A program made the position numbers and the translations under genes. A stretch of DNA of 64,000 nt, from the UHGV virus genome UHGV-0287696, one strand, 5' to 3'. Shown here piece by piece: positions 36,802-51,858 of the stretch. The notes under the pieces were generated by a model. It was not told the origin of the DNA. It did no database searches and saw nothing but the letters and a program-made list of their open reading frames with translations. The DNA is from a virus. Numbering within the stretch: the stretch's first letter is position 1; each line of letters starts with the position of its first letter.

Positions 36802-38007
36802 TTATTTCGTACCCGCTTCTGCCTGAACGTCATCACGGGACGTCAAGTTAGCGTTAACGTGTACTGGAGCCTGAACCACACCACCGTATTTCTTGTGGAG
36901 ATAGCCTGTGTGTGGGTTATCTGCCGCAATATGGTTTTGTAGGTTCTGATTCGCCTGACTGATTGCGTTCGTGTTATTCGCAACCTGTTGTTTAAGCGCA
37001 TCCAGGTTTTGTTGCAGATTATCAATTTTCTGATCGGACTCATTACCCCGTTGTTCTAACGCAGCAATGCGCTGAATCGCTTGGTTGAGTTTGGTGCTCA
37101 GATCGTTGATATTTTTCTGTAACTGTAACACCAGCGAATTTAGGTTCGCCAATGCCAATGCCATTTTCTGGTAGTTTTGTGCAACGATGTTAAGTTGGTC
37201 GTTCCACGCTTCCAAAGATTTGACAACAGCATCAATACGTTTTCCTAACGCTTCATCCGCTTTCTTCAACGCATTAATATCAGTAATGGTTGCATCGATG
37301 GCAGACTGTACATCACGGATAAGTGCACGGATCTCCGTTTCTGTTAACCCGTTAACCTGATGAATGTCCAGATGGTGGACGTTACCCGTGGCGTTAATGT
37401 GCGCGTTCAGCGCGTCCAGGAAATCGTTTTTCAGGCTTTCGAGAATCGCTTTGATGTTCTCAAGCTGTACAGCATCGCCCGCCGTTATCGCATCTTTAAT
37501 GCCAGCGAGCACTGTAATGATATATTCGAAGCCGTAAATATCGCCGACGTCTTTATACGTCGGTGCCGACGGAAATGTATCAGGAACATTTCGCAAGTCT
37601 TTAAAGCCAACAGTTCGATTATCGAGATTCAACTCAGCAATCGCCTGTTCTATCGCAGTCACGTTTGCCGACTGCGGACCCCCGACTACTTGCGCCGATA
37701 CCGTGATATCGGTCGGAATCGCGGTGTTCGTTACAACAACCGCCATTACCACTTCCCGGTTCTTCGTCAATTTCTCGTAAGCCGGGTGTGCAAAAATCAA
37801 CTCATAGTCCGTTCCGCGTTCATACGTCGCATCGGGGCGGTTAGCAACCCGCAAGCGGAACGTATCAGCATAAAACGGACCGTCAGGAAAAGCAAACGCA
37901 CGGTTAACTTTACCTGTACCTAACGTAACCTGACGCTCCACGGCGTTAGAGGTTAGGGTTCCCGTTAAATCTAAAGGGTATTGGTATACAATGGAGGCCA
38001 TGGCCAC
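36802..38007 (-). CDS. fibre-like structural protein with coiled-coil region
   Basis: 401 aa; N-terminal module (FPDGPFYADTFRLRV...GTDYELIF) shared with the three larger upstream genes; long heptad-like helix (LNSLVLQLQKNINDLSTKLNQAIQRIAALEQ); HHLDIH motif. Confidence 0.7.
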   Translation of the reverse strand: MAMASIVYQYPLDLTGTLTSNAVERQVTLGTGKVNRAFAFPDGPFYADTFRLRVANRPDATYERGTDYELIFAHPAYEKLTKNREVVMAVVVTNTAIPTDITVSAQVVGGPQSANVTAIEQAIAELNLDNRTVGFKDLRNVPDTFPSAPTYKDVGDIYGFEYIITVLAGIKDAITAGDAVQLENIKAILESLKNDFLDALNAHINATGNVHHLDIHQVNGLTETEIRALIRDVQSAIDATITDINALKKADEALGKRIDAVVKSLEAWNDQLNIVAQNYQKMALALANLNSLVLQLQKNINDLSTKLNQAIQRIAALEQRGNESDQKIDNLQQNLDALKQQVANNTNAISQANQNLQNHIAADNPHTGYLHKKYGGVVQAPVHVNANLTSRDDVQAEAGTK

Positions 38008-38041
38008 TCTCCTTAATCCGAGACGTCCTTGTCTCGTGGCG

Positions 38042-41000
38042 TTAAGATGTAAACATAAGATTGAACTGGAGCTTATCGATATCGCGCGTTTGTGCTGGGT
38101 TAACCGCGTCGTACGTGGTTGCCACGTAGACCGTTAATGTCCCGTCAGCAAACGAGGTTTTCACCGGTGGCGTAGTCCCTGTCTGTCCATCAGTTACAAT
38201 GACGACAGGTTGAGCCGGGAGTTGATGGAACTGACCCTTAACCGCTTTATACACCAAACCAGATTGTGCTGCTAACTCCGTGTCGGTGTACACGATAAAC
38301 GGTGTGTCGATATCTGTCTGTTTAATGACAGTGTTCGTCTCAACGTCAATCAGCTGAACAGCACCGAACTTCGTACGGTAGCTATCGTATTCATTTTTTG
38401 GAATGACAAACGTAGCATGTACACGGACTTCTTCGGCTGGCTTAAATCCGGCGTGTTCTTTTTCCAGATAGCTGTTAGCAGTTAACGTTACTGTCTGTTC
38501 AGTCATCGTACCACCAGACTGGTTTAACCCGTAACGAACTTGGGTTATACCTGTCGGAGCCGCAAGCCTGATTTTTAGTCTACGGTTAGCGGTGCCGGGA
38601 TTACCAGGCACTCTAACACGCAGGCTCAAAGCCAGATATGCATTCGCACCGGTAGTCGGTTTCGTATACGCACCCAACCACTTCATATTCGCGGTTGCCG
38701 CTTGACTGTTCTCAGAAGCAGTAGCCGCTGCAACGTTCGCAGCAACCGCTTTCTGCCAGAACTGGTCAGCGCAGTTTTCATACGCTACTCTACCGATACT
38801 TTTATAACCTGCGTAGGTTTCCTGTATCGGCAGTTTGGGACGTGTTGTGATCCCGCTCAACGCATTCCATCTCTGACCATCGACATACCCTGCACCATTG
38901 CTCGCGGATGCCGTGGGGGCTTTCAGCGGTTGGTTAACCAAGGTTTGGAGTGGACCCGTTTTTCGATCGTACGCCGCTGCAACGTCGTGCTGATCCCTAA
39001 CAGCAGCGTGTTCTTCTAATTCACGAACCCTGCCTAACCGTTTCACTTTATCGATGTTAATAGCAACTATACGCTTTTTATCGGTTGTAACTGTACCAAC
39101 AAATAATCGCGAACTCGTATCCGGCAGCTTTTCCAGACCGATCTGATATTGAGCTTTCGAACCTACAAGAGCAGCATGAACATAGAACGTCTGGTTAGCA
39201 TGGTTTTCTGGGAACTCGTTGCTTAAATCCACCGACCACGTCGGTAATGTATAGCTATTACTACCGAAATCTAACCTGACCTCTTCCGTCAAGTATAGAA
39301 TCCAACCTTCCGCAGTCTCCACGCCTGCAATAATAACCGCCTGCCCCGCTGTTGAGAATGTGGTATCATTAACGAACTCTTCGACTGTGTATGCGTTACC
39401 TGAACAGAAAACGCGGTCAGCTTTAGAGAAAATTCGTGCCATCTTGTCCCAATTACCCGCACCCATGTAACAACCAGATTCTGGGTTGTGGGCAGGAGCC
39501 ATCTGACGCAACTGTGACTTACCGGGAACGCGAGTCCAACCCGACCCAGGGTTAAAGGTATACTTCGCAGCGTAACCCAAAGCATTTAGGTCCCCGATAT
39601 TCCGTATTGTCAGCGTATAAGGCAGCCATAGACCGAAGTTTACACCGTCGGCAGAAGCAAATATGGGCTGGCCTACACGTCGCGTTTTATTACCCGCTTC
39701 TTCCCTCAGAGACTGATAACTTAAGCCGTAATCAAGGTCTAAGAACCAATCAACGAGTTTGAAAGTAGCCGAGTTAAAACGTAGATAACCATTTTCTTTA
39801 GTCGGACTTACCATGAAGTAATAGATGTCGAGGACCCGACGTCCGTTACTCAAGATTTTCATGCATGAAACTTGTAATAAGTCGAATTCACAAACGGTGT
39901 TAATGCCTAGCAACCAGAGTGCAAACAATGCATTGCCGCTTTGGTGTGCTGCACTGATGCGCTCGTTCGCGTAACCATTTGCCTGACCAGATGGTGCGCC
40001 ATCGACAATCATCCTAATCATCTTCTGGCGATCCGCTTCCTCTAACGTCAGCCGTTCTGATGACAGGGCAAAGTTACCGTAGATGTTCCGATATGGAAAG
40101 GTTTCCGCTTTCGTCAAATACCAACCGTTTAACTGACCGTGACGCTCCTCAGGAGTCATACAAGCAGCCATACAGCTTAACTGTTCGTAAAGGGTTGCAT
40201 CAACTTCTCGACGGTTGTTGTTCGGACCATAACCACTATATCCAGGAACGTCATAAGGTTTACTTGGGTCAACTTCTACTTCGATCGTATAGCGGTTGCG
40301 CGGATTGGATAGCCATACTTTGTTTGAGCCACCGATACCAACAGGATGAGAAAGACCGATGGTATAGATAGAACCACGACCTTTATCCCAAGTAAATGTT
40401 GCTTCGCCTGAGGTATTGTTTGGGTTATCATAACGCAGATAATCAAAAAACTCTTTGCCTTGCGTACTTTTAATAGTAACGTTCGGCATCTGGTCCGCAT
40501 CGTTAGTCTGCCAGCAGGAAAGCATCATTCCTGAGACATTAGGTTTAGCATACGTCGCAAAACAACGATTGTTTGCTTGGCCGCCACCCCACTTACGACT
40601 GGTTTCTACAGTTGAGCCATCCGCGTACGATAGTCTGGTAGCATCAACCTTAATGGGGAAACGTTCGGCACCCTCTAACGTAACTCTGCCCGTTAACGTA
40701 TCGATTGTGAAACTTGTTGACCATTGACGGAAATTAATCGTCGTACCGTCGGCAGCCGCAAACCACACGCTGGGTACATGGTTCACACGAATCACGCTGT
40801 CGCGTACCGCACAAGCATGGTTACATTCTGGACCGTGAACAAAGTTGTGACCGATTGTCCATTTAGCCCGTGCCTCTGGCGGGTAATACGTAAAGAACTG
40901 ACCAGTCTGCGACTCTTCGGTCTTCTGGCCAATTCTTAGGCAGAGGTTATCTCCGAATTGCCCCATTTCTCCGGTTAGGGTTACACGTTCAAATTCTAAC

Positions 41001-43225
41001 TCAGTATTGGTAGTCAAATCGGCTTTACGTAAACGCCATGCCGCCACGGCATAAGCAGCGTTATTTACCGTGGAACGAAGAAGATAAACGTGGTCGTCAA
41101 CTAACACAACATCGTCGGCTTCTGGCCAAGGATTCCAGGTTTGTTCCACAGTACCGCTGGGGTTGCCATTACGGTACTTAGGCATTGTAACACGACACAC
41201 CACCGTGTGTTTACTGTGGTCCATCGAACCATTGAACAACACCAAATAACGGTTATTGTCAGAACCCAGACAAATAATCGCTTCCTGGCCACCGATCAAT
41301 ATCGCTTTTAAGGTCACCCCAGGGTATTTACTCATCCCAACAGGATGGTATTTCACCGAAGTTTGCTGAGGGTTCACAAACACATTCGACGTATTGATAT
41401 CAGCATAGCCGTAGTAAATAGCCTCTGTACCAGGCACACCATTAGAAGCATTACGTAACGAATAAACTTTACCTTGTTGGAATCCTACAACACCTTTCTG
41501 ATAGGACTGGTTCTTTGTAAAACCTGAATAATTACCGAGTGCCGGAATGGGTAAGAAGTTTTTGTTACCGAACTTCGCCCCACCGACAGTCCACGCAGGT
41601 AAGATGGTATTCAGTTTATCAGAGACTTTCTTAATCTCTTTTGCGAACAACCAGCCTTGACGAGACGTGACGGCTTTATCGCTCGTGGTATCAATCGCAT
41701 CCCACAACTGTAAGATACCATCCACAGTCGCACTGCCAATCGGGACATTATCCAAATCGGCGGTAGTGTGCGTGTGCTCCTTCACACTTTTATTTTTCAG
41801 CACGTTCGCTAACGCTTTTGTTACCGGTTTAGCGATCGGCATGGTGTTATCCATCTTATCGATACCGAAATCGGTTTTCGTTAAGGTTAACACCATTTTA
41901 TCGCCCGTCTTAACAAACCCTTTACCGTTAACCGTGTAGTCATCGTCAACGTACAAGTCTAACCGGTCTTTTAACTCGGTCACCGCCTTTTGGGAAATAG
42001 CAGTGCCTAGTGCTACGGAGGTTGCGATATTCGTAATCGAAAACACCCCATAAACCGACTCGGTTGCTGTGGGAATATTCGCGTTCAACGTTAGCGGGTT
42101 AGACTGCTTCGCTGTACCGTATGGTTTTACGGTGTCTGATGGTTTGAAATAGGCATTTGCTTCAAGTAACGTTACAGACGTCAGGTACATGTTCACCATT
42201 TCTGGTGTAACCAAATACACAGAGTTGTAAACCGGCGCTAATACATCCTGTTCTGTCCCAGAGTGCACCCAAAGCGTATTCAGTCCCGCACTAAATTCAA
42301 CCGCCAAACCCGATTCGTTGTTGTCCTGGTCCGCTTTAATCACTAGCGGTTGCGGTGAGGTAATTAACCACTTATCACCACGGATACTGATGATGTGTCC
42401 GCCTGCGGTTTTAAACGTCAGTTCGTTACCGTTCGTGCTACCCCATCGACCGTAAACAGTGCCGAGGGCTTCACCCATTAACTGATCAACGTCTGATTGC
42501 TCAATACCCGCCGAACCCATCAGCGTAGCCAACTCGTCAATCGTCAGTCCAAACGCTTTTGTCGCGTCGACAGCACGTCCCAAAACCGGAAGGGCACCAA
42601 CATCAGTGGTCGTATACTGGTGTGCGTTAGGATTAAGGTGGTGTTGGTATAACTCCTCGTCGAAAACTTTTTTACCGTTCTCGTAAATCAGGTTAGTGAC
42701 TTCGGTAAACGCTGCATCTAACTCTGTTGAACGTTGAACGATTTTCTTACGGATGTCGTTTAACGCTTTAACAACCTCATCCCTCAGAATAGCTTCTTCT
42801 AAGTTAGCAGGGGGATCGATAGGTTGTATAACCGGTGCATACGCCATTAACTCTGACCAGTCCACGTTACGTGGGTCTTTCAGGTCAGTACGAACTAAGA
42901 ACTTTCCGATTTCAGATTGTGGTACACGATACTGGCGTGCTACCCCTAAAATCTCATATTCGATTTCTGTTGCGGTCAGCAACATAAACCCGCCATAAAT
43001 CTGATCTTGTTCAGCTTCTGCGAGTTCTTTAAAGTAATAGCCTAAATAGTAGTCCAACCCCTCAATCAGAGTACGACGTCCGTTAGGCGCGGTATCGTCG
43101 GCTACTGTGAGTTTTAATCCGATACGATAAAAAGGTCCTTCAGGCGGAATGACCACATTAAATCGGTTAGGGTACGTCGCTGTGCTTAACGTACCGTTAA
43201 ACTGCGCCGCGTCTTCTCTCGGCAT
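38042..43225 (-). CDS. large tail fibre/tailspike-like structural protein
   Basis: 1727 aa; shared N-terminal module PPEGPFYRIGLKLTV...GLDYYLGY; AGGAG Shine-Dalgarno. Confidence 0.75.
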   Translation of the reverse strand: MPREDAAQFNGTLSTATYPNRFNVVIPPEGPFYRIGLKLTVADDTAPNGRRTLIEGLDYYLGYYFKELAEAEQDQIYGGFMLLTATEIEYEILGVARQYRVPQSEIGKFLVRTDLKDPRNVDWSELMAYAPVIQPIDPPANLEEAILRDEVVKALNDIRKKIVQRSTELDAAFTEVTNLIYENGKKVFDEELYQHHLNPNAHQYTTTDVGALPVLGRAVDATKAFGLTIDELATLMGSAGIEQSDVDQLMGEALGTVYGRWGSTNGNELTFKTAGGHIISIRGDKWLITSPQPLVIKADQDNNESGLAVEFSAGLNTLWVHSGTEQDVLAPVYNSVYLVTPEMVNMYLTSVTLLEANAYFKPSDTVKPYGTAKQSNPLTLNANIPTATESVYGVFSITNIATSVALGTAISQKAVTELKDRLDLYVDDDYTVNGKGFVKTGDKMVLTLTKTDFGIDKMDNTMPIAKPVTKALANVLKNKSVKEHTHTTADLDNVPIGSATVDGILQLWDAIDTTSDKAVTSRQGWLFAKEIKKVSDKLNTILPAWTVGGAKFGNKNFLPIPALGNYSGFTKNQSYQKGVVGFQQGKVYSLRNASNGVPGTEAIYYGYADINTSNVFVNPQQTSVKYHPVGMSKYPGVTLKAILIGGQEAIICLGSDNNRYLVLFNGSMDHSKHTVVCRVTMPKYRNGNPSGTVEQTWNPWPEADDVVLVDDHVYLLRSTVNNAAYAVAAWRLRKADLTTNTELEFERVTLTGEMGQFGDNLCLRIGQKTEESQTGQFFTYYPPEARAKWTIGHNFVHGPECNHACAVRDSVIRVNHVPSVWFAAADGTTINFRQWSTSFTIDTLTGRVTLEGAERFPIKVDATRLSYADGSTVETSRKWGGGQANNRCFATYAKPNVSGMMLSCWQTNDADQMPNVTIKSTQGKEFFDYLRYDNPNNTSGEATFTWDKGRGSIYTIGLSHPVGIGGSNKVWLSNPRNRYTIEVEVDPSKPYDVPGYSGYGPNNNRREVDATLYEQLSCMAACMTPEERHGQLNGWYLTKAETFPYRNIYGNFALSSERLTLEEADRQKMIRMIVDGAPSGQANGYANERISAAHQSGNALFALWLLGINTVCEFDLLQVSCMKILSNGRRVLDIYYFMVSPTKENGYLRFNSATFKLVDWFLDLDYGLSYQSLREEAGNKTRRVGQPIFASADGVNFGLWLPYTLTIRNIGDLNALGYAAKYTFNPGSGWTRVPGKSQLRQMAPAHNPESGCYMGAGNWDKMARIFSKADRVFCSGNAYTVEEFVNDTTFSTAGQAVIIAGVETAEGWILYLTEEVRLDFGSNSYTLPTWSVDLSNEFPENHANQTFYVHAALVGSKAQYQIGLEKLPDTSSRLFVGTVTTDKKRIVAINIDKVKRLGRVRELEEHAAVRDQHDVAAAYDRKTGPLQTLVNQPLKAPTASASNGAGYVDGQRWNALSGITTRPKLPIQETYAGYKSIGRVAYENCADQFWQKAVAANVAAATASENSQAATANMKWLGAYTKPTTGANAYLALSLRVRVPGNPGTANRRLKIRLAAPTGITQVRYGLNQSGGTMTEQTVTLTANSYLEKEHAGFKPAEEVRVHATFVIPKNEYDSYRTKFGAVQLIDVETNTVIKQTDIDTPFIVYTDTELAAQSGLVYKAVKGQFHQLPAQPVVIVTDGQTGTTPPVKTSFADGTLTVYVATTYDAVNPAQTRDIDKLQFNLMFTS

Positions 43226-43257: not shown

Positions 43258-43280
43258 ACCCCTCCCCATTACAGGGAGGG
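43258..43280 (-). terminator. minus-strand hairpin with U-rich tail between large fibre genes
   Basis: cccctcccc-attaca-gggagggg with AT-rich tract 43241-43255; conserved 11-mer at 43285-43295 lies just upstream on the minus strand. Confidence 0.5.
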
Positions 43281-43319: not shown

Positions 43320-46300
43320 CTAAGTACGATCCCCTAACTGCTTCCCGTTAAGTTCTCGTTTCAGTACAGCCAAAATCCACTTCCACGCTTTACTCGTGAT
43401 GTGGTACGGATTGCGTTTCTCCATTAAGAATTGACTTTCGCCGCTACGGAGTTCGAAGCTCTGCGCATTGAGTTGGTCTTGGCGAACACCGTTCTCGTCA
43501 GTGACATCTAACGAACAGGTAAAGTTAAGCTCGTAGCCCTCTGGATTATTGCCTGGTGGTTCTAAGACAATATAAATGTCCTGTCCTACACGTAGGTCCT
43601 TTGGCGTAAGGGTAACTGCTTTACCTGTGTCCGCGCTGGTCGAAAGCGCAAACGGCACGCTATCGATAGCTGATACATACGCGTCCTTCCCAGAATCACC
43701 GATAATCACCTTACCCGGCCAGTTACACTTCACCGTTCCTGTCACTTTTGCAACACGGTACTGCTGTTTATCAGCACCTTGTGCAAAGCGTAAAATGAGT
43801 TTATGCCGATACCGGTTTGCGGCAGCTTTGGATGTACTCCACTCATTGTTCCAGGAGGCATGAAGTTCACCTTTCTTGGCCATCAAAGCACCACGAGACA
43901 GCTTACGTGGGAAGAATTGTGCCGGAAGTTGCCCTTCGTGGGAAATCGCTACACTCCCTTGTCCGGTTGGAAGTGCTATTGTTTCCGTAGGGCAATAATT
44001 TAACTCGTACACGTGTGTTGTAGGTTCGATCAATTTCTGATAGTAATCGCCGTCCTTACTGTCCGCTAACCAACCAACGGAAGAGTCCGTATACGATTCG
44101 AACAGTGAACGTAAGTAGTGATACTTATCAATATTGATGTTACCTGTTTTTGGATCAATCAGAGCATGGTTAATAGTGAGGAAACACTTCTCACTCAAAC
44201 CATTAAACGCCAAACCCACACCGTCACCAGTAAAATAGTCTACCAGGTCAAATGGAAGCGTCATTTCTATTTGTCGCAGGTTGATAGTCGTTGAACCAAA
44301 CTGCGAAAAAGATAGCGCTAAACGAAGTACACGAGTATTAACATTATAACGATAACGAATCATCCCACGCGGCGCATGGTTCGCGGAGATCTTATCACCG
44401 TTTGGACCCCACCCAATTAAATCGAGTATCTCGGCGTTTGCTACTTCACCATTAAACAAAACGTCTTTAGTCGTGACTTCAACTGACGTTTCCCTTCCGG
44501 CATCCATCAACATCGAACCGTTATTCAACTCGAAGCTCTTGTGCCAAACTTCAGAAGTCGAACCAGCACCTACACCCACCTTACAAGTTTTACTAGTAAG
44601 GTTAATACGCACATAACGGCGTCCCACTGTACCGCCCTGCGAGCTTGCACACAAAATAAGATCAGGTGCCGCAGACAGTGCCTTGGTCCCTCCAATGTCA
44701 TCAACATCGAAAACGAATGAGCCTTCGAACGTTGGTGCGTTATTTTCCTTCGGGTTAAATGGCGTAAACCAACAATAAGGCGTCGCGCCCTCGGTTGAGA
44801 AAATCAACTCTAAGTCAGATTTAACATTTAATCCGTGGGAATAAGAAAAGAGACCGCGACTTAAGGTACAAAGCGTTCCACCGCTTCCGCTACCTAAGGT
44901 TTTTCGATATATTAAAGCGCGGGGTTCTGGGATAGCACGGTTTAATAACGGCAACCGTGGGTTATCCGTTAACGTCCAGTCGACAGAACTGAGCCCGTGT
45001 GCTTTACGAGCGTCGATGTGCTCACTAACCTCGGTACTTTTCCCGAAATCAAACGTGGTTTCAAAACTCACGGTTTTATTCGAGTAAGATTCACCGGCAA
45101 CAATATCAACGTAGCCGATATAACCACGTTCAGGGTCAACTGCAATACTCTGAATTGGCTCAGTACGCGAATACAGAGAGCCTGTGAGCATGTTAACGTA
45201 CAGATAATGACGAATCCCTACGTGTGTTGTAACAAACTCTTGGAGAAGCTCTACGTGCGTTTCAGGGCCACTGAAATAAACGGGGTAGTCACCGTCGTAA
45301 ATTTCGAATTGCACCGCTGCGGATTTAGCCGTGTCGCTACACTCAGCTTTAACCGCCACGGTGTAGTTTTCAACGTCTGCTGATGTTTCATACACTGCAA
45401 CAAGCGGAGACTGGCCTGTGGCTGCCTGGATACCGTTAATGTAAACTGTAACCGGGCCACCCCCTGCGGCATAAACCCAAAGCTTCGGCTGGCGTGCCCT
45501 TACCCGCGTTTTGGCCAACACAGTAACAACTGACTGGTCACCCATCTGTGAGGCAGTTTTACCTACCGGAACAGATTGGAAACCCATTAGTGGTGGTTCT
45601 TCAATACCTGTCCAGTTAATGCCCTTACCAGTGCTCACTTTCCCCGTAGGCCAAGTCGTCTCAATTTGGTTGTTCGGTGAGAACCAGTTAAACATCGGCG
45701 TAGTTTGCAGGTCAATCGAACCTGTAACGGCGCTATCAGCTTTCGCACCGTTCAGCAAATAGAAATACTTCAAATCTTGGACGGAGATTGCCGTACCCTG
45801 ACTATTAAAGCGCCAGTCTGCGCCTTTTACCGCAGCGAAATCCGTTACCGACCCTTCTTTCGCGTTTGCAATCGCCGCGGCGACCACATCTAAACGCGCC
45901 GAAAGTTCTTTTAAGATGTTCGGTACTACTGCACGGTTTTCAACCAAACCGTTCTGGTTAGTTGCGTAACGGCCGATACCGTAAACGGTTTGCGAGGCTT
46001 TATAAATGCCTAGTTCCGACCAATCGTGGTGGTGGCCTGCATCCGCTAAACCACTAAGTGCCGCATTTAACTCGGTAGACAACGGCTTGTCAACGTCTGC
46101 GGTGTTATCCGCTTGCCCTAACCCCAGATCAGCTTTCGTGATTGTCCTGGAGCCGTCGTTCATCGGCTTACCGTTAATCATGGTCGTTTTAGCCACATAC
46201 CCCGATAAGTCAGTCGAGTATGGTGCTAACGACGCCGGTGTTGCAGCAACCCCAGTCGTTTCTGTACCTTTACCTGTTTTAAGTTTAGCGACGCCTTTTT

Positions 46301-47525
46301 CGGCGGTTGTCGCTTTTGTTGGGTCGATAGTCCCCACGATAGGGTCGGCGCGAGAACCTTTACCGGTAAAGCTAATCCCATTACGACCTTCAATGTACAC
46401 CTTCGAGTCATCAGGGTCGCCACCGCTACCAGAACCCGCATCTGGATCTTGTTGGTATTCCATCAACGCCGTGGTAGTCAGTAACGGGTTACCGTTCAGG
46501 GTGAGTTTGTTCATCCCTAAAGCATCGCCTGTTGACTCGATGCGTAATGTGTTTTTACCGGCACGCCAGTTGATATAGCGTCCTGCACCTGTGCCTTCCA
46601 GATGTCCTACCGCCAATACCACAGAACCGTTGGATTTTAACGTAAAACCATCGTTGGCAAAAATGATTTCGGACTCACCGTTTTTCGAACGGAACTGTGC
46701 GCGGTTTCCTGACACCGTACAGTTAAACACGCCCCGTACTTCCGAAGAAATCCAGTGAGAGATATACGTATCGATAACCGACTGCGGTAAACGAAACGCT
46801 TTCAGCTCATCCGTCAGTGCTTTCAACTTTAACCCGTACGCCATAAAGGTGTCGGGTGTTTTCAAGTTAACAGGATGCGCGTTAATCTGCGCGGATGTGG
46901 TTTCGTGCGGGTTCTTCGCTGCGATATGTGCTGGGTAATTAAATGCTTCGATTTCTTTACCCAACGCAGTCACTAACGCTTTAACTTCAGCTAATTTGTC
47001 TTTAATTAACTGGTTAGCGTCATCGGTTTTCAATTCAATATCGTGAACTGCCGACGCTAAATATTTTTTGTTCAGCAAATCCGCCCAAGACGTTGCCGCA
47101 GGCGTAGCCGGGTATAACGACGGTCTGCCTTCTAATAACAACCAGTCAGCACTGACTGGGTTATTCAAATATTTCACCAGTTCATCGAGAATATCAACAA
47201 ACGGGTCGTAGAACGTACCGCCGAGCATTTGTCCTTCAAAGGTTACGATACCCTTGATGGATGGGTTGATAAGGTGTACCCCACAATACACGTTGGCTGC
47301 TACCGAGTCATCCAGTTCCGTCAGCTGATATTGCAGTTCGTAGTCCACCCCACGACTCAGTGGGGTGGTTGAACCTGGTTGTCTGACGACCAAATCTTCA
47401 AAGAACGGGCGGTGGTCTAAAATCACCACCCGATCGTTGTTGTTCTCTGACCCGATGATACGCTCCTCTAAGAAGTGATTCTCGGCTTTCGTCCCCCGAG
47501 GATCGTAAGGATACGCTTTCATCAA
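43320..47525 (-). CDS. large tail fibre/baseplate-associated structural protein
   Basis: 1401 aa; shared N-terminal module HRPFFEDLVVRQ...GVDYELQYQL; NPHETT motif. Confidence 0.75.
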   Translation of the reverse strand: MMKAYPYDPRGTKAENHFLEERIIGSENNNDRVVILDHRPFFEDLVVRQPGSTTPLSRGVDYELQYQLTELDDSVAANVYCGVHLINPSIKGIVTFEGQMLGGTFYDPFVDILDELVKYLNNPVSADWLLLEGRPSLYPATPAATSWADLLNKKYLASAVHDIELKTDDANQLIKDKLAEVKALVTALGKEIEAFNYPAHIAAKNPHETTSAQINAHPVNLKTPDTFMAYGLKLKALTDELKAFRLPQSVIDTYISHWISSEVRGVFNCTVSGNRAQFRSKNGESEIIFANDGFTLKSNGSVVLAVGHLEGTGAGRYINWRAGKNTLRIESTGDALGMNKLTLNGNPLLTTTALMEYQQDPDAGSGSGGDPDDSKVYIEGRNGISFTGKGSRADPIVGTIDPTKATTAEKGVAKLKTGKGTETTGVAATPASLAPYSTDLSGYVAKTTMINGKPMNDGSRTITKADLGLGQADNTADVDKPLSTELNAALSGLADAGHHHDWSELGIYKASQTVYGIGRYATNQNGLVENRAVVPNILKELSARLDVVAAAIANAKEGSVTDFAAVKGADWRFNSQGTAISVQDLKYFYLLNGAKADSAVTGSIDLQTTPMFNWFSPNNQIETTWPTGKVSTGKGINWTGIEEPPLMGFQSVPVGKTASQMGDQSVVTVLAKTRVRARQPKLWVYAAGGGPVTVYINGIQAATGQSPLVAVYETSADVENYTVAVKAECSDTAKSAAVQFEIYDGDYPVYFSGPETHVELLQEFVTTHVGIRHYLYVNMLTGSLYSRTEPIQSIAVDPERGYIGYVDIVAGESYSNKTVSFETTFDFGKSTEVSEHIDARKAHGLSSVDWTLTDNPRLPLLNRAIPEPRALIYRKTLGSGSGGTLCTLSRGLFSYSHGLNVKSDLELIFSTEGATPYCWFTPFNPKENNAPTFEGSFVFDVDDIGGTKALSAAPDLILCASSQGGTVGRRYVRINLTSKTCKVGVGAGSTSEVWHKSFELNNGSMLMDAGRETSVEVTTKDVLFNGEVANAEILDLIGWGPNGDKISANHAPRGMIRYRYNVNTRVLRLALSFSQFGSTTINLRQIEMTLPFDLVDYFTGDGVGLAFNGLSEKCFLTINHALIDPKTGNINIDKYHYLRSLFESYTDSSVGWLADSKDGDYYQKLIEPTTHVYELNYCPTETIALPTGQGSVAISHEGQLPAQFFPRKLSRGALMAKKGELHASWNNEWSTSKAAANRYRHKLILRFAQGADKQQYRVAKVTGTVKCNWPGKVIIGDSGKDAYVSAIDSVPFALSTSADTGKAVTLTPKDLRVGQDIYIVLEPPGNNPEGYELNFTCSLDVTDENGVRQDQLNAQSFELRSGESQFLMEKRNPYHITSKAWKWILAVLKRELNGKQLGDRT

Positions 47526-47535: not shown

Positions 47536-50500
47536 TTAATCGCGAATGATTACCGCCTGCACTTTATTGTTGGTGTCGATAAACGACATTACGCGCTCCT
47601 TGTTAAGATAAGGAGGTATCGGTAACGCAGCGTAATCCGCCAGGTTGTTATTAAATTCAGTTGCCACTAACGCATTAAGCGTTTCGGGGTCTGAACTGAC
47701 ACCGGTCAATTCCATAACGCGCACACGATTTAATGAGGAATAGTTGCTAATATAGTCTAACAACGTACCATAGACTTTATTCGCGGTTGCGCTGTCTGCC
47801 GTAGAACGGATGTTGGCACGAACTTCATCCTCATAAAGTCCCCCTAAACCGTAGTAAATAGGGGTATACGGATCGTTAACGATAGGTGCGATATTGAACC
47901 CTGTTAGACGGTCAGTTAGAGGGATTTTCTGCGTAGCTCCCCCTGCTGCCGTGCAACTTACGTATTTATCGGTCGCAGATAAAAACACCACGATGGTATA
48001 CGTAGTGCCCGCTAAGGTCAGTGTTGCGTTAAACGTTAATGCGTTGTTTGCAGCACGGGTGTGGGTAAACGTTACGTCAGGTTGTAACGTATTCCACGGT
48101 GCAGGCGTAACACGCTTCGTTGGTGTGAAACCTAACACTACCGATTTCCCGCTACCGAAGTTCAAACCGAACCCTGCGTAACAATATTCACCGTTGCTGT
48201 CAGTTAAACGATAACCACGAGTGATAAGTAACGACAACCGCATAAACTCGCCGTCGGTGTTTTTCCAACAACCTAAAACAGTTTCTAACACCGTGCCGGT
48301 TTTTGCGTTGCTTTCTGTTTCCCAACTGACTCGCATTCCTGCGTTCTTAAAAGCTGGGAACATGTTGTGGATAAACCCGTGTAGGTTATCGCTTACCCCT
48401 TTCGCGTCAAAAATCCACTTGGATGCGAGCTGGTCGTATTTCATCCCGTCTAAAGCTTTATACTGCCCACCGGCAACATAACGCCAATCTGCTTCACCGC
48501 GTACTACTGCCTGGAGTCCAGAAGCCCAGCAAGGCGCGCCTACCGTTAAGTTAGCTAACCCAAGCGTTGCACGTGACGCGGAGCGCTGAATGTGTGCGTT
48601 GTCATCGGCTTTATGATCTTTCAGTTCACGGAAATCACCCAACCGTGTGACATTACGCATCTCCGTAACGAACACCTCAGAAATGTCGTTGACGCCGATC
48701 AAACCCACACGCGTCATGGTATCCGTTTCAGCCTGACTGTAGCTGTCGTGGACAATATACTTCGCTTTGTTGTCAACAATATCAACAAAAATCCCTGCGT
48801 AGATTTCTGTATTCAATTTCGGAAAACGTTCACTGACGTTAATCGTCATCAACGGAACGTCGTACGTTTCACCACCGATAAAATACGTTGAAGCTGGAAG
48901 CGTGACCAGAATTTTGTCTTTGACCGTAAGGTCTATTAAGTCGTTACCAGACTCACCAAAACGTATAATGTCAAGACGTGCCTCCGAGTCAACGCCGCTG
49001 ACAGCGCGCTCCAATTTTTCAATCTGGGAAGTCTGCGCCATTACCACACTCCCATCGAGTGCTAAAGTCGCATCATCCACATCCAGACCAAATTTAATCA
49101 GACCACGTTGCGCTGTGGTTGCGTTCCCAGTACCAAAAGCGGTAAACGGGTGTTGGTGAACTTTAGGCGAGTATTTATCTAACTCCGCACGTTGTGCTGT
49201 AGAAATCGGTAAATCGGCATCGGGCGTATTCGCAACGTTACCTAAACCAAAGGTAATCTTATCGATAGTAACCGAGCTGGTAAGTTGCATGTCGTTAATG
49301 TACGATTTAACTGCAACTAACTTACCGGTGAACTCCGCATCGAGTTTTTCAATCAGTGCTGGCGTTGCTGCAAGGTTTTCAGCGGTACCAAACTCATCGG
49401 TCAACTGCCAAGCTGCCAGAGCTGTTGTATCGGTCGCGGTAGGAAGAATAAAGGTCGCTACGAACGGCGAGGCTTTTATCCCGCTACCGGTGATCGTAAC
49501 CGTTGTTGTCGAGTTTGCGTAGAATAAACCTGTACCACCTGCGGTATTGCCCGGCAGATACGGGGCTACGGTGGTGGGGTCTAAGAGTTTTTTACCACGC
49601 CACAACAATCCTCGGTCATCGGGGTATAGCACAAGCTGGTTAGTACCTGCTTGGAACGTTACGGGGTTGTTACCCACGTTAACATCAGTAGAACCTTGAC
49701 CGATGAACTTAATGGATTTCGGATCAACGACAAACTGAGCGCCTAAACGTGTCTCGTCAACAACATCCGGTGCTTTCTTAATGGTAACCGTGTTACCTTT
49801 GTTTTGCGAACTAATGGTAACGGCGTCGGCAACATTATTGATCAGCGATTTAAAGTGGTGCTGATTCTCTAATGCTTCTAACGCAGCGTCCATGTTATTG
49901 AAGTTAATCCGACCGCTATACGTTTTACTGTTTACGGTAATAACGACGTCAAACACATTCCCTGTACGCTTCAGTTGAAAACGTAGCGTAAAATCCCCAT
50001 CCGGTATTGCCGGATTAGGAGCTTGCGAAATATACCGAACTGCCGGTACCGGACTCCCGTAACCGTGCAACGCCAGTTCGATAGTAAGAGTACCGGACCA
50101 GACTTCACCGCTAATCTCTACGTACTTACCGGAGTTACTACCAGGATTTTCGTAAAAACGTAAACCAACCCTACCGACCGCTTCATTACCAGACGCTGTT
50201 TTACGTCCAGTAACAATAAAGTCAATATCTTGCAGGTTGGCAGGCACCGCATTAAAGTTAGCACTGAAACCGCTTTTCGTTCCTGTGTAACGAAGCGCGC
50301 CGTGATATCTGTGACCACTACTAACATAGCTTTCGCTAAAATAAGGACTCACGTATTTCGACATCGAGACCGGATCAACTTCCGTCGTGAACGAAGTAAA
50401 ACCAGGAAGTGTGGCAATCGTGCCGTTAACGTTCTTGCTCGCCGATTCACGAAGCAGTTTTTTCTGTGCGGTTAACGTTGCTTGTGTTGGGTACTTAGCA

Positions 50501-51858
50501 TTAACGTAATCCGTTAACTGCTGTTTCGTTTTCCCGTAAGCTAACGCGGCATCCGACGCAATACCATTCAGCTCTAACGCACGGATCGGACCCCACGTAT
50601 CGGTGTGCGGGTTGTCCTTACGTGTAACGTGTTCGTGTGCAGGCGCGTTACGATACAGCTGCTCAACTAACTGATGGTATTTGACTATTAACTGGTAGAC
50701 ATCGTTATCGACGTCAGGTTCTGGTGCGCCGGGTAAAGAACGAATTTGAATATAATCGTTTTCGGCCGCATACCAGTTTAAATTAATGTTCGTTTTAAAC
50801 TTCAACCATTTAGCAACATCCGTTTTCGAATATCCTGCCGAGAACTCATCAGGCGGCGTATCGACGTTGAATGTGTAATCCATGGTCTGTTTATTTGTTT
50901 TTACTACGATGACGTAAACACCGTTTCCGGGTTGACGGGTTACACTAAAATCGATATCGTTTTTTAACTCATCGTCAGTTAAACCGTTGATTAACGTATA
51001 ATCGTAGTTTGTTGAACCGCTACCAATAGCGACCGTTAAGACCAGTGAGATTTTGCGCTGTTTTAGCTGCAACCGTAGAATACTTGCACCGCCGTTAGCA
51101 TAACAGAGCATCCAATCGATCTGTTCGTTTGGATTCAATTTCGTCATGTCTGGCAGAATAGCAGGAATTCTGTGTTTCACTGACAGGGCGTAGTCGTTAA
51201 AGGTTGCAGTTTTATAACTCAAGCTATAACGATGACGGGTAGTGTTGTAGGTGAAGCCACCTTTATTGTCGTATACGGCATACTGCTCGGAAGTGATAAC
51301 CTTGCTATTAGCACGGTATTCTAAATCCAGGGTATTGCGTGCGATGGGGTTAAGCCGACTCACGACTTCCCCTAACGAATCGCCTAATCCAGCAATAGCC
51401 TGCATTAACTCCAGTTCACCTTTCCAATTCTCCCAATCGAACTGGATATCGACCGGTGGAAAGTAAACGTCCCCGATGACGGTGTCCCACTGACACGCAG
51501 TCGGGTATTTATCTTTATTGAGTTCGCGTTCTGCGGTAATCTGTTGTTGGGTAGCCTGACCACAACCAACGGCGTGGTAATCTACCGTAAAATTCGATTT
51601 GTATTTGTCATTAACAATCCAAATCATCCCGTGAATGAGATAGGCTGTGCGCAACATACCGGTCTCGTACGGGTGTGTAATAACGTAATCGTCGCCTAAG
51701 GTCAGTGTTTTGCCGCCGCTCTTGACCACCAGGGATGTGGTGAAAAAAGGGGCGTGGGCAGGTACCAACATTCGGTATTTCGTACCAATGACGGCGACCG
51801 CTTCACCGGTTATTTTATTCCCCGGTTTTTTGAAGTGTGGGTCTAAGACGACAGCCAT
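47536..51858 (-). CDS. large tail fibre/baseplate-associated structural protein
   Basis: 1440 aa; shared N-terminal module APFFTTSLVVKSGGKTLTLGDDYVITH; KVHQHPFTAFG motif. Confidence 0.75.
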   Translation of the reverse strand: MAVVLDPHFKKPGNKITGEAVAVIGTKYRMLVPAHAPFFTTSLVVKSGGKTLTLGDDYVITHPYETGMLRTAYLIHGMIWIVNDKYKSNFTVDYHAVGCGQATQQQITAERELNKDKYPTACQWDTVIGDVYFPPVDIQFDWENWKGELELMQAIAGLGDSLGEVVSRLNPIARNTLDLEYRANSKVITSEQYAVYDNKGGFTYNTTRHRYSLSYKTATFNDYALSVKHRIPAILPDMTKLNPNEQIDWMLCYANGGASILRLQLKQRKISLVLTVAIGSGSTNYDYTLINGLTDDELKNDIDFSVTRQPGNGVYVIVVKTNKQTMDYTFNVDTPPDEFSAGYSKTDVAKWLKFKTNINLNWYAAENDYIQIRSLPGAPEPDVDNDVYQLIVKYHQLVEQLYRNAPAHEHVTRKDNPHTDTWGPIRALELNGIASDAALAYGKTKQQLTDYVNAKYPTQATLTAQKKLLRESASKNVNGTIATLPGFTSFTTEVDPVSMSKYVSPYFSESYVSSGHRYHGALRYTGTKSGFSANFNAVPANLQDIDFIVTGRKTASGNEAVGRVGLRFYENPGSNSGKYVEISGEVWSGTLTIELALHGYGSPVPAVRYISQAPNPAIPDGDFTLRFQLKRTGNVFDVVITVNSKTYSGRINFNNMDAALEALENQHHFKSLINNVADAVTISSQNKGNTVTIKKAPDVVDETRLGAQFVVDPKSIKFIGQGSTDVNVGNNPVTFQAGTNQLVLYPDDRGLLWRGKKLLDPTTVAPYLPGNTAGGTGLFYANSTTTVTITGSGIKASPFVATFILPTATDTTALAAWQLTDEFGTAENLAATPALIEKLDAEFTGKLVAVKSYINDMQLTSSVTIDKITFGLGNVANTPDADLPISTAQRAELDKYSPKVHQHPFTAFGTGNATTAQRGLIKFGLDVDDATLALDGSVVMAQTSQIEKLERAVSGVDSEARLDIIRFGESGNDLIDLTVKDKILVTLPASTYFIGGETYDVPLMTINVSERFPKLNTEIYAGIFVDIVDNKAKYIVHDSYSQAETDTMTRVGLIGVNDISEVFVTEMRNVTRLGDFRELKDHKADDNAHIQRSASRATLGLANLTVGAPCWASGLQAVVRGEADWRYVAGGQYKALDGMKYDQLASKWIFDAKGVSDNLHGFIHNMFPAFKNAGMRVSWETESNAKTGTVLETVLGCWKNTDGEFMRLSLLITRGYRLTDSNGEYCYAGFGLNFGSGKSVVLGFTPTKRVTPAPWNTLQPDVTFTHTRAANNALTFNATLTLAGTTYTIVVFLSATDKYVSCTAAGGATQKIPLTDRLTGFNIAPIVNDPYTPIYYGLGGLYEDEVRANIRSTADSATANKVYGTLLDYISNYSSLNRVRVMELTGVSSDPETLNALVATEFNNNLADYAALPIPPYLNKERVMSFIDTNNKVQAVIIRD

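What the first reader, a model, noticed from the sequence alone, without database searches (positions are those of the whole stretch)
36802..51858. Four consecutive fibre-like genes share a conserved N-terminal module but diverge completely downstream
The proteins of 401, 1727, 1401 and 1440 aa all begin with a related roughly 80-100 aa region (pattern P-x-x-x-P-F-(Y/F)...L-x-V...G-x-DY-x-L) and several carry NPH/HxH-type motifs. This looks like a common virion-attachment module fused to different distal domains, i.e. a multi-fibre or multi-tailspike adsorption apparatus, probably built by duplication and distal-domain swapping.
Basis: seen in the sequence. Interest (0 to 1): 0.6.

Follow-up and report, generated by a model that had tools for sequence, protein, structure and literature searches.

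The report
Jumbo-phage baseplate fibre gene set
Four neighbouring genes of a giant SPN3US-like phage encode tail-fibre proteins that share the already described phiKZ gp131-type baseplate anchor, and they are more likely parts of one composite fibre than four separate fibres.

Summary
The four minus-strand ORFs are real. They are orthologues of Salmonella phage SPN3US gp167-gp170 and Erwinia phage Asesino gp187-190. The N-terminal similarity is statistically solid: shuffle tests, profile-profile probabilities of 99.0-99.9%, and a family HMM that hits only these four ORFs in the window.

The description is inexact in two ways. The shared module is about 170-225 aa, not 80-100. It consists of a beta-sandwich, a helix and an H-x(n)-N-P-H motif. 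The three long proteins also stay collinear for about 520-585 aa and share further modules.

This is the phiKZ gp131/133/134/135 family, called "Paralog family C" in SPN3US. In the 2026 phiKZ cryo-EM atlas, six such N-domains plus a six-helix bundle dock under gp130. A gp130 homologue lies divergently next to the array here.

AlphaFold2 models the distal part of the 1727-aa protein confidently as beta-propeller-like and beta-sandwich domains, not a beta-helix.

The N-domains fall into two old types. All 16 chimallivirus arrays I examined keep at least one of each: 3+1, 1+3, 1+2 or 1+1. That fits a 3+3 hexameric fibre base, here A x3 + B + C + D.

Verdict: a new member of a known kind, of moderate interest.

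The parts
36802..38007 (-). Gene A (401 aa as listed; probably 399 aa from the ATG at 38001). Orthologue of SPN3US gp167 and Asesino gp187. It has a type I gp131-like N-domain, a helix, an H..NVH motif, a ~140-aa coiled coil and a C-terminal H..NPH motif.
   Evidence: phrog_2163, 8.6e-104; 77.6% to SPN3US gp167; phiKZ gp135, 1.6e-13; AF2; type I
38042..43225 (-). Gene B (1727 aa). Orthologue of SPN3US gp168 and Asesino gp188. Type II N-domain.
   Evidence: (phrog_7449, E 0)
43320..47525 (-). Gene C (1401 aa; probably 1400 aa from the ATG at 47522). Orthologue of SPN3US gp169 and Asesino gp189. Type II N-domain.
   Evidence: (phrog_8078, E 0)
47536..51858 (-). Gene D (1440 aa). Orthologue of SPN3US gp170 and Asesino gp190. 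Type II N-domain. It occupies the position of phiKZ gp131, next to the gp130 homologue.
   Evidence: phrog_7557, E 0; phiKZ gp131, 4e-9
37333..38007 (-). A anchor module, aa 1-225: beta-sandwich (about 10-125, pLDDT ~85), helices 159-203, and HINATGNVH at 203-211.
42581..43225 (-). B anchor module, aa 1-215: N-domain, helix, and HHLNPNAH at 195-202.
46866..47525 (-). C anchor module, aa 1-220: N-domain, helix, and HIAAKNPH at 200-207.
51358..51858 (-). D N-domain, aa 1-167. Its helix and HEHVTRKDNPH motif are displaced to aa 386-430 (50569-50703) by insertion 1.
50704..51357 (-). D insertion 1, aa 168-385. Present in D orthologues but variable: 15-30% identity to Asesino.
49744..50376 (-). D insertion 2, aa 495-705. 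Absent from the SPN3US and Asesino orthologues. Present in a 94%-identical database protein, P0112.
41546..42580 (-). B shared stalk, aa 216-560. Fibre motifs: GIDKMDN 454-460, AKPVT 465-469, HTH 484-486.
45771..46865 (-). C shared stalk, aa 221-585. Fibre motifs: GLGQADN 468-474, DKPLS 479-483, HHH 498-500.
49009..49743 (-). D shared stalk, second part, aa 706-950. Fibre motifs: GLGNVAN 871-877, ADLPIS 881-886, HQH 901-903. The first part of the stalk is aa 431-494 (50377-50568).
39026..41545 (-). B distal globular region, aa 561-1400: confidently modelled all-beta, beta-propeller-like domains. It contains module 3 at aa 1271-1408 (about 39002-39415).
   Evidence: (pLDDT 85.3, pTM 0.69)
38045..38824 (-). 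B C-terminal beta domain, aa 1468-1727. It follows a disordered linker (aa 1400-1467). It is the least conserved part, at 16-40% identity to orthologues.
   Evidence: CBM61-like hit; which domain it aligns to is not known
48607..49005 (-). D module 3, aa 952-1084, homologous to B 1271-1408. It ends in RLGDFRELKDH...DNAH.
   Evidence: 5e-6; 1.6e-40
45291..45692 (-). C aa ~612-745: weak profile match to fungal-type 'lectin' chains in the PDB. A hint only.
   Evidence: E 1.1e-3, 20 bits
51927..53189 (+). Divergently transcribed homologue (420 aa) of phiKZ gp130 and SPN3US gp171. In phiKZ this is the peripheral-baseplate protein under which the fibre N-domains dock.
   Evidence: 2.8e-12; phrog_3337; SPN3US gp171 is an essential tail gene

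Best explanation
The four genes encode the subunits of the baseplate-attached tail fibres of an SPN3US-like nucleus-forming jumbo phage (Chimalliviridae).

Shown:
- Each protein starts with the phiKZ gp131-type anchor: a ~165-aa beta-sandwich, an amphipathic helix and an H-x(n)-N-P-H motif.
- The gene for the docking protein, a gp130 homologue, lies divergently next to the array.
- B, C and D continue with a collinear ~350-aa stalk carrying classical fibre motifs. They then end in different globular distal domains. In B these are beta-propeller-like and beta-sandwich domains.
- A continues as a coiled coil.
- Orthologues are conserved at the N-terminus and diverged at the C-terminus.

Inferred:
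- By analogy with the phiKZ cryo-EM map, six N-domains and their six helices form one fibre base under the gp130 homologue.
- That base would contain three type I chains (A x3, held by its coiled coil) and three type II chains (one each of B, C and D).
- The conserved stalk would then present three different distal heads that bind host surface carbohydrate or protein and set host range.

I put the general identity (baseplate fibre proteins sharing a known anchor) at about 0.9. I put the specific A3+B+C+D stoichiometry at about 0.4-0.5.
For: Identity and homology:
- Orthology to SPN3US gp167-170 and Asesino gp187-190.
- N-domain homology to phiKZ gp131/133/134/135.
- E420 is homologous to gp130, and the divergent layout is conserved in all 16 phages checked.

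Literature:
- SPN3US gp168-170 are 'Paralog family C', baseplate/fibre candidates that are absent from tailless particles (PMC5694885).
- SPN3US gp171 is an essential tail gene and gp168 is a tail protein (PMC5105663).
- In phiKZ, the fibre sites beneath gp130 hold six gp131-like N-domains plus a six-helix bundle. The authors fitted them as gp131x3 + gp133 + gp134 + gp135 (PMC13250141).

Fibre character:
- PHROG tail-fibre hits on the stalks.
- Fibre motifs at matching spacing: GLG to HxH is 30 aa in B, C and D.
- Orthologue identity falls from 70-86% at the N-terminus to 16-40% at the C-terminus.

Composite-fibre inference:
- The N-domains split into two types, with NJ bootstrap support of 186/200.
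- Every array has at least one of each type, and never more than one on both sides. The patterns are II,II,II,I (4 phages), II,I,I,I (4), II,I,I (3) and II,I (5).
- The D-C-B-A set is kept 1:1 in a Vibrio phage at 23-37% identity.
- In Goslar, type I gp25 and type II gp29 are roughly equimolar, with LFQ copy estimates of 87 and 75.
- In SPN3US, gp168, gp169 and gp170 are about equimolar. gp167 is 1.4-2.4 times more abundant per kDa.
Against: - No structure or stoichiometry exists for this phage or for SPN3US.
- The phiKZ hetero-hexamer is itself a rigid-body fit of AlphaFold models into a map low-pass filtered to 6 A, and the authors call it a 'candidate'.
- The SPN3US ratio of gp167 to gp168-170 is about 2, not the expected 3. 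Spectral counts are crude.
- Some type I/II calls are marginal: phiKZ gp133 67 vs 60 bits, Psa21 89 vs 88, pEt-SU 85 vs 88.
- Only ±20 kb around each array was scanned, so paralogues elsewhere in those genomes would be missed.
- The type HMMs come from a tree without model-based phylogenetics.
- Heterotrimeric fibre stalks are unusual. B's distal region folds confidently as a monomer, which is compatible with, but does not require, one copy per fibre.
- Receptor binding by the distal domains is inferred only from fold and from the divergence pattern.
Confidence: 0.6

Rival explanations
1. Four independent homotrimeric fibres or spikes. Each protein trimerises on its own and plugs into its own baseplate socket through the common N-domain. 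The phage would then carry several alternative receptor-binding proteins.
For: - A conserved N-terminal anchor with variable distal parts is the classical layout of interchangeable receptor-binding proteins.
- Family-wide, the anchor is fused to many different distal domains: Peptidase_S74, PKD, Collar, Big_9 and Gp10_C. Protein lengths range from 159 to 2164 aa.
- The stalk motifs are those of ordinary trimeric fibres.
- The SPN3US proteins are at roughly portal-like abundance, 10-18 copies. That does not exclude six trimers.
Against: - In phiKZ, six N-domains of different paralogues occupy one attachment site.
- Every array keeps both N-domain types, and the counts are restricted to 3+1, 1+3, 1+2 and 1+1. 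That is not expected for freely gained and lost alternative fibres.
- The four-gene set, its order and even B's length (1727 aa) are conserved across Salmonella, Erwinia, E. coli and Vibrio phages.
- No beta-helix or depolymerase signature was found.
Confidence: 0.2
2. Three kinds of 3+3 fibres. A trimer of A pairs with a homotrimer of B, of C or of D, giving A3B3, A3C3 and A3D3. Three different fibres would share one common partner.
For: - It satisfies the two-type rule.
- It predicts the same overall A:(B+C+D) = 1:1 ratio.
- It keeps the usual homotrimeric fibre stalks.
- Goslar, with one gene of each type and near-equimolar gp25 and gp29, would be the simple A3B3 case.
Against: - phiKZ has two fibre sites per sixfold unit, 12 per virion, and they are 'almost indistinguishable'. 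Three fibre kinds cannot be distributed evenly over two sites per unit.
- Triplication to exactly three paralogues happened on opposite sides in two lineages: type II in the SPN3US/Vibrio phages and type I in the phiKZ-like phages. Three positions in one trimer explain this more simply than three alternative fibres.
Confidence: 0.15
3. Mainly structural peripheral-baseplate proteins. The large beta-propeller regions would build or brace the ~100-nm peripheral baseplate ring instead of binding receptors.
For: - Large parts of the peripheral baseplate of phiKZ and Goslar remain unassigned.
- B is highly conserved in length.
- Beta-propellers are common scaffolds.
- The window also holds a separate, canonical long tail fibre with a gp38-type adhesin. 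That fibre could provide receptor binding.
Against: - The N-to-C decay of orthologue identity, and the host-correlated divergence of the C-termini, are typical of receptor-binding proteins rather than scaffolds.
- Fibre motifs and PHROG tail-fibre hits are present.
- phiKZ gp131 was located on fibres at the baseplate periphery (Sycheva 2012, as cited).
Confidence: 0.07

Closest known systems
phiKZ gp131, gp133, gp134, gp135 (gp131-like N-terminal domain paralogues; fibre base under gp130; PMC13250141; Sycheva et al. 2012)
   Same: - Homologous N-domain, helix and H..NPH motif.
- Tandem array starting next to a divergent gp130 homologue.
- Four genes.
- Both N-domain types are present.
- A beta-propeller fold is used distally: gp131 C-terminus in phiKZ, B here.
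   Different: - The composition is mirrored. phiKZ has one long type II (gp131) and three short type I (gp133-135). Here there are three long type II (B, C, D) and one short type I (A).
- Here the type II proteins are 1400-1727 aa and include a ~350-aa fibre-motif stalk, inserted domains and module 3.
- No sequence match to the gp131 propeller crystal structure was found.
SPN3US gp167-gp170 ('Paralog family C' = gp168-170; PMC5694885, PMC5105663) and Asesino gp187-190
   Same: - Direct orthologues in the same order and orientation, with the same neighbours: the gp171/gp130-like gene, the baseplate assembly protein and the radical-SAM genes.
- A is 76-78% identical overall; B, C and D are 42-57%.
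   Different: - The published family lists three members. Here gp167/A is shown to carry the same anchor, as a distinct type I.
- D in this window has an extra ~210-aa domain.
- C-terminal regions are only 16-40% identical.
- The phage is not in the phage collection. The best DNA match there is 76% over 7% of the query. An E. coli 'plasmid' record is 84% identical.
Goslar gp25 and gp29 (listed only as likely peripheral-baseplate or tail-fibre components; bioRxiv 10.64898/2026.04.21.720040)
   Same: - Same N-domain family: gp25 is type I and gp29 is type II.
- A gp130-like gp30 lies divergently upstream.
   Different: - Goslar has only one gene of each type.
- gp25 ends in a Peptidase_S74 chaperone domain.
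- Other genes (gp26-28, some with module 3) lie between the two.
Branched multi-tailspike systems (CBA120, G7C, phi92 types). This comparison rests on my own knowledge of the literature.
   Same: - Logic: a conserved N-terminal attachment part with diverse distal receptor-binding parts.
- Several such genes in tandem.
   Different: - No beta-helix tailspike or depolymerase family is detectable, and no T4 gp10-like branching domain was detected in these four proteins.
- The anchor fold has no significant match in the PDB. The best hits are podophage fibre N-termini at E 0.03-0.15.
- The gene set is conserved rather than exchanged.
T-even-type long tail fibres (gp34-gp38)
   Same: - The stalks of B, C and D carry GLGxxxN, DKPxS and HxH-type motifs common in fibres. 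That HxH motifs bind metal in T4 fibres is from my own knowledge.
   Different: - None of the four reaches any Pfam fibre family.
- A true T-even-like fibre with a gp38 adhesin is encoded elsewhere in the window, at 10992-16096.
DUF7941 filament proteins of chimalliviruses (Goslar gp22/gp23; phiKZ gp126/127)
   Same: - Also a chimallivirus-specific family of multi-copy baseplate-associated paralogues with variable carbohydrate-binding ends.
   Different: - It is a different domain. No DUF7941 hit was listed for the four proteins (for A only the best 25 of 78 hits were shown).
- DUF7941 is found in another ORF of the window, 16184-18118.

Membership tests
phiKZ gp131-like N-terminal domain family (chimallivirus baseplate fibre proteins; SPN3US Paralog family C) | N-terminal ~165-aa domain homologous to that of phiKZ gp131/133/134/135 | tested here: met
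   - BLAST to the phiKZ proteins: A-gp135 1.6e-13, D-gp131 4e-9, C-gp131 2e-8, B-gp131 7e-4.
- The family HMM hits all four, and also the phiKZ, SPN3US, Asesino and Goslar members.
- hhalign probabilities are 99.0-99.9% between the four orthologue profiles.
phiKZ gp131-like N-terminal domain family | Domain at the extreme N-terminus, followed by a helix and an H-x(n)-N-P-H motif | tested here: met
   - The domain starts at residues 1-9 in all listed representatives.
- Alignment with the phiKZ proteins.
- Motifs at A 203-211 (NVH variant), B 195-202 (NAH variant), C 200-207 and D 408-418, the last after insertion 1.
- Helices 159-203 in the AF2 model of A.
phiKZ gp131-like N-terminal domain family | Tandem array beginning next to a divergently transcribed gp130 homologue (the docking protein) | tested here: met
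   E420 (51927-53189, +) matches phiKZ gp130 at 2.8e-12. The same layout is found in all 16 phages examined.
phiKZ gp131-like N-terminal domain family | Protein is part of the virion tail/baseplate | not testable with these tools
   Known only for orthologues. SPN3US gp167-170 were detected in virions and were absent from tailless particles (PMC5694885; PMC5105663). Goslar gp25 and gp29 were found in virions.
phiKZ gp131-like N-terminal domain family | Six N-domains plus a six-helix bundle form one fibre base (hetero-hexamer) | not testable with these tools
   No multimer prediction was available. Indirect support comes from the two-type rule across 16 arrays and from near-equimolar type I and type II proteins in Goslar.
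Branched tailspike / depolymerase systems (CBA120, G7C, phi92 type) | Right-handed beta-helix (pectate-lyase-like) or other depolymerase catalytic domain in the distal part | tested here: not met
   - No Pfam, NCBIfam or PDB sequence match for B, C or D.
- The modelled distal part of B matches beta-propellers, not beta-helices.
- The distal parts of C and D were not modelled.
Branched tailspike / depolymerase systems | T4 gp10-like branching/attachment domains at the N-terminus | tested here: inconclusive
   - No Gp10 family hit in the four proteins.
- One distant family member out of 66 carries Gp10_C.
- The fold search with the A model gave no significant hit.
DUF7941 chimallivirus filament family | Pfam PF25613 (DUF7941) domain | tested here: not met
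   No DUF7941 hit was listed for A-D (for A only the best 25 of 78 weak hits were shown). The neighbouring-cluster ORF 16184-18118 does match, at 1e-13.
T-even long tail fibre proteins (gp34/36/37) | Pfam fibre repeats or trimerisation domains (Phage_fiber_2, Gp34_trimer, Peptidase_S74) | tested here: not met
   None were found in A-D. All three are present in ORF 10992-15590.

The most novel reading that the evidence does not exclude
The fibre base of chimalliviruses is an obligate 3+3 hexamer of two anciently diverged anchor types. Either trimer can be replaced by three paralogous chains.

This lineage and the phiKZ lineage would have triplicated opposite sides. phiKZ would be (gp131)3 + gp133·gp134·gp135. 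Here it would be (A)3 + B·C·D.

B, C and D would then form a heterotrimeric stalk ending in three different 500-1200-aa receptor-binding heads. One fibre would carry three specificities, which would be an unusual way to build a multivalent adsorption organelle.
Probability: 0.35. Interest if true: 0.65.

Novelty: new member of a known kind. Interest (0 to 1): 0.35.

Why it matters
The finding itself rediscovers a described family: the phiKZ gp131 paralogues, called Paralog family C in SPN3US. Its anchor role was visualised in 2026.

Three things add some value.
- The short coiled-coil protein (gp167 type) belongs to the same anchor family, as a separate type.
- The long proteins are mosaics. 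They share a ~520-aa scaffold, inserted domains and a mobile 'module 3', and the distal part of B is beta-propeller-like.
- A simple comparative rule holds in all 16 arrays examined. Both anchor types are always present, and there is never more than one paralogue on both sides.

The rule gives independent support to the low-resolution hetero-hexamer proposal for phiKZ. It also makes that proposal testable in the genetically tractable SPN3US system.

Host range of jumbo phages matters for phage therapy against Salmonella, E. coli, Erwinia and Pseudomonas. Knowing which chains carry the receptor-binding heads would guide engineering.

Tried and rejected
- Pfam and NCBIfam scans of the four proteins gave only coiled-coil noise for A and nothing for B-D.
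- phmmer against PDB sequences found nothing meaningful. Profile searches for the D family and for module 3 also found nothing. The C family gave only a borderline lectin match, E 1e-3.
- Foldseek of the A model against the PDB gave no significant hit. The top hits were podophage fibre N-termini (T7 gp17 type) at E 0.03-0.15. I treat this as a lead only.
- I tested whether D's two insertions are internal duplicates. BLAST found nothing. HMM and hhalign gave a collinear but non-significant signal, iE 0.08 and probability 3.7%. Rejected for now.
- The search for homologous proteins with D's C-terminus returned only four near-identical fragments, so no deep alignment could be built.
I surveyed arrays through 16 annotated phage records instead.
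- The sigma-70 promoter scan found fewer sites than in shuffles (14 vs 25). It is not informative for a phage that uses its own RNA polymerases.
- The first bootstrap script timed out. I repeated it with a vectorised version.
- The DUF7941 filament family was considered and rejected for these four genes.

Full report
**1. What is there**

The region holds four consecutive minus-strand ORFs:
- A, 36802-38007, 401 aa
- B, 38042-43225, 1727 aa
- C, 43320-47525, 1401 aa
- D, 47536-51858, 1440 aa

Orthologues are 399-400 aa for A. They begin like the second codon of C. The true starts are therefore probably the ATG at 38001 (A) and the ATG at 47522 (C).

The intergenic gaps are 34, 94 and 10 nt. 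The 94-nt gap between C and B contains an 11-bp G+C-rich hairpin at 43258-43282.

**2. Source and orthology**

The 15-kb region has only patchy DNA similarity to deposited phages. The best match is Erwinia phage Asesino, at 76% over 7% of the query. The conserved patches are the 5' ends of D and B.

At protein level the genes are orthologues of Asesino gp187-190 and Salmonella phage SPN3US gp167-170. They share the same order, orientation and neighbours. PHROGs assign A to 2163, B to 7449, C to 8078 and D to 7557. All of these are 'virion structural' or unknown.

An E. coli clinical isolate carries a 221,873-bp 'plasmid' that is 84% identical over 95% of the region. Proteins about 90-95% identical occur in Salmonella and E. 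coli assemblies and in sequencing-run assemblies. The window therefore comes from an undescribed SPN3US-like jumbo phage of enterobacteria.

**3. Is the N-terminal similarity real?**

Yes. Full-length BLAST is significant for A-C (2e-6) and B-C (4e-19) but marginal for A-B, A-D and B-D at the N-terminus. Stronger tests settle the matter.
- Smith-Waterman scores of the first 160 aa against 1000 shuffles give z = 3.9-11.5 for all six pairs.
- All four match the N-terminus of phrog_2163.
- Profile-profile comparisons of orthologue alignments give probabilities of 99.0-99.9%.
- An HMM built from 138 representatives hits exactly these four ORFs in the 64-kb window.

A profile of the four N-termini finds 3222 cluster representatives at E ≤ 1e-3 among 1.84 billion proteins. 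The domain is always at residues ~1-170. The proteins range from 159 to 2164 aa.

PF(Y/F) and G-x-DY lie in the domain. An H-x(n)-N-(P/A/V)-H motif follows the helix at homologous positions. HxH lies 30 residues after a GLGxxxN motif in B, C and D.

**4. Where the description is inexact**

The common module is about 165-170 aa of beta-sandwich plus a helix and the NPH motif, so about 215-225 aa in all. The AF2 model of A has pLDDT ~85 for residues 10-125 and helices at 159-203.

Downstream, B, C and D do not diverge completely. C and D align over 551 columns and D and B over 517. D is the same scaffold interrupted by two inserted domains, at aa 168-385 and 495-705. The second insertion is absent from the SPN3US and Asesino orthologues.

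The shared stalk carries classical fibre motifs and matches PHROG 'tail fiber' families.

B (1271-1408) and D (952-1084) also share a ~140-aa 'module 3'. That module recurs at the C-termini of other proteins in these arrays in other phages, including proteins that lack the anchor. Examples are Goslar gp26 and gp28, and RAY gp20. It has no relative in the PDB by sequence.

Only A departs after residue ~225. It forms a ~140-aa coiled coil that ends in a second H..NPH motif.

**5. What the family is**

The literature already describes it.
- SPN3US gp168-170 are 'Paralog family C'. They are low-abundance tail proteins similar to phiKZ gp131 and are missing from tailless particles (PMC5694885).
- gp168 is a tail protein and 'expected essential'. 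gp171 is an essential tail gene (PMC5105663).
- The 2026 phiKZ structural atlas places fibre-attachment sites beneath gp130. [quoted passage not shown] The authors fitted these as gp131x3 + gp133 + gp134 + gp135, with twelve fibres per virion (PMC13250141).

I confirmed that A-D are homologous to these phiKZ proteins. I also confirmed that the divergent neighbour E420 (51927-53189) is a gp130 homologue. The next gene, 53657-54622, is a 'baseplate assembly protein'.

The Goslar preprint's DUF7941 filament family is a different family. Goslar's members of our family are gp25 and gp29.

**6. Distal parts**

Orthologue identity falls from 70-86% at the N-terminus to 16-40% at the C-terminus in B, C and D. 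A and the gp130 homologue stay at 76-81% throughout. This is the pattern expected for receptor-binding ends.

With 55 orthologues, AF2 models B 540-1727 confidently, with pLDDT 85.3 and pTM 0.69. The model is all-beta globular domains, a disordered linker (B ~1400-1467) and a C-terminal beta domain.

The C family gives a borderline profile hit to lectin chains, E 1e-3. The D family gives none.

**7. Two anchor types and a composition rule**

A neighbour-joining tree of 152 N-domains separates two groups. One holds A, SPN3US gp167, phiKZ gp133-135 and Goslar gp25 (type I). The other holds B, C, D, phiKZ gp131 and Goslar gp29 (type II). Bootstrap support is 186/200 on a 60-sequence subset.

I built type-specific HMMs from database representatives only. 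With these I classified every anchor within ±20 kb in 16 phage arrays.

| Pattern | Phages |
|---|---|
| II,II,II,I | window, SPN3US, Asesino, Vibrio phage pVp-JHP1101 |
| II,I,I,I | phiKZ, PhiPA3, Psa21, Noxifer |
| II,I,I | RAY, N1M2, pEt-SU |
| II,I | Xoo-sp14, PhiEaH1, RP31, Kodama, Goslar |

In every case a gp130 homologue lies divergently upstream of the first, type II, gene. No array lacks a type, and none has more than one paralogue on both sides.

The Vibrio phage genes are 1:1 orthologues of D, C, B and A, in that order, at 23-37% identity. The type II triplication is therefore old and has been stably retained. In the tree, B, C and D are closer to each other than to gp131, and gp133-135 are closer to each other than to A. 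This implies independent triplications on opposite sides.

**8. Mechanism proposed**

Shown: a common anchor, an adjacent docking-protein gene, a fibre-like stalk, globular divergent ends, and orthologues in virion tails.

Inferred: each fibre base is a 3+3 hexamer of type I and type II chains under the gp130 homologue. Here that would be three copies of A, whose coiled coil would provide the trimer, plus one each of B, C and D. Their collinear stalks could form a heterotrimer ending in three different heads.

The quantitative data are compatible but weak.
- In SPN3US, gp168, gp169 and gp170 are about equimolar (1.08, 1.41 and 1.00 spectra/kDa). That is close to the 12-copy portal (0.93-1.29). 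gp167 is 1.4-2.4 times higher per kDa.
- In Goslar, the LFQ copy estimates for gp25 (type I) and gp29 (type II) are 87 and 75. On that scale modelled baseplate proteins are over-estimated 2-3.7-fold.

**9. Rivals**

- Three kinds of A3X3 fibres.
- Mainly structural baseplate proteins.

The composition rule, the conserved four-gene set and the phiKZ map argue against the first. Two near-identical sites per sixfold unit in phiKZ, and the recurrence of exactly three paralogues, argue against the second. The N-to-C divergence gradient argues against the third. None of the three is excluded.

**10. Verdict**

The shared module is a common baseplate anchor and the genes arose by duplication. However, the proteins show no tailspike or depolymerase signature, there is no evident distal swapping in this lineage, and they probably do not form four separate fibres.

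The system is a new member of a known kind. The type I/II rule and the mirrored 3+1 versus 1+3 composition are, as far as the papers I searched show, not stated in the literature. They make the hetero-oligomer model testable in SPN3US.

Noticed in passing
window 10196-18738 (+): A second adsorption-gene cluster.
- A 1532-aa T-even-like long tail fibre at 10992-15590, with Pfam Phage_fiber_2, Gp34_trimer and Peptidase_S74.
- A 167-aa gp38-type adhesin at 15593-16096 (Gp38_N, 3.7e-20).
- A 644-aa protein at 16184-18118 with tail-fibre PHROG matches and a C-terminal DUF7941 domain, the Goslar 'filament cloud' family.
- A 197-aa phrog_2935 virion protein at 10196-10789.

The phage therefore has at least three kinds of host-recognition structures.
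   Followed up: partly
window 14499-14983 and 15593-15745: The fibre tip and the start of the gp38-like adhesin gene are 85-94% identical in DNA to Yersinia phage vB_YpM_39 (49 kb) and Escherichia phage CMS-2020a (~108 kb). The rest of the window has almost no DNA match to deposited phages. This looks like a recent horizontal exchange of a receptor-binding tip into a jumbo phage.
   Followed up: no
window 49744-50376 (D aa 495-705): A ~210-aa domain is inserted in D. It is absent from the SPN3US and Asesino orthologues but present in a 94%-identical database protein. Its origin is unknown. It shows only a non-significant, collinear resemblance to the C-terminal half of D's first insertion.
   Followed up: partly
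window 38999-39418 (B) and 48574-49011 (D); also L013 (Goslar gp26, gp28), L007 (RAY gp18-20), L009, L010: 'Module 3' is about 140 aa and ends in ...RLG-x-(F/V)-R-E-L-x-E-H. It is internal in B and D. In other chimalliviruses it is the C-terminal domain of array proteins, including proteins without the gp131-like anchor. It has no PDB or Pfam relative and its role is unknown.
   Followed up: partly
window 35930-36328 and 36339-36737 (-): Two tandem 132-aa paralogues, both phrog_6085 (unknown function), lie directly downstream of gene A. SPN3US has one annotated small gene (gp166) at this position.
   Followed up: no
window 32433-34662 (-): Two adjacent radical-SAM genes (440 and 307 aa, phrog_1802) lie downstream of the fibre array. 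They are conserved at the same position in SPN3US (gp163-164) and Asesino (gp180-181). Their function in the phage is unknown.
   Followed up: no
window 43258-43282 (-), in the 94-nt gap between C and B; also 53196-53220 and 53519-53538: Strong 8-11-bp G+C-rich hairpins with weak T tails. The first lies inside the fibre array, between C and B. It could be an attenuator or an RNA-stability element. The overall terminator-like count is not above shuffles.
   Followed up: no
E. coli strain 98232 record NZ_CP173450.1 (221,873 bp), positions 11332-26370: A record deposited as an E. coli plasmid is 84% identical to the fibre region over 95% of its length, with the four genes annotated as hypothetical. 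It is evidently a jumbo-phage genome carried with, or co-sequenced with, a clinical isolate.
   Followed up: no
window 36910-36933 (A aa 359-366), 48592-48615 (D aa 1082-1089): The H-x(n)-N-(P/A)-H motif recurs directly after other helical segments: at the end of A's coiled coil and at the end of module 3 in D. It appears to be a general 'helix-bundle exit' motif in these fibres. It may be a metal site, but that is only my inference.
   Followed up: no
window 38001-38007 and 47522-47525: The mechanical ORF starts (GTG for A, TTG for C) are probably not the real ones. Orthologues begin at the ATG two codons (A) or one codon (C) downstream.
   Followed up: partly
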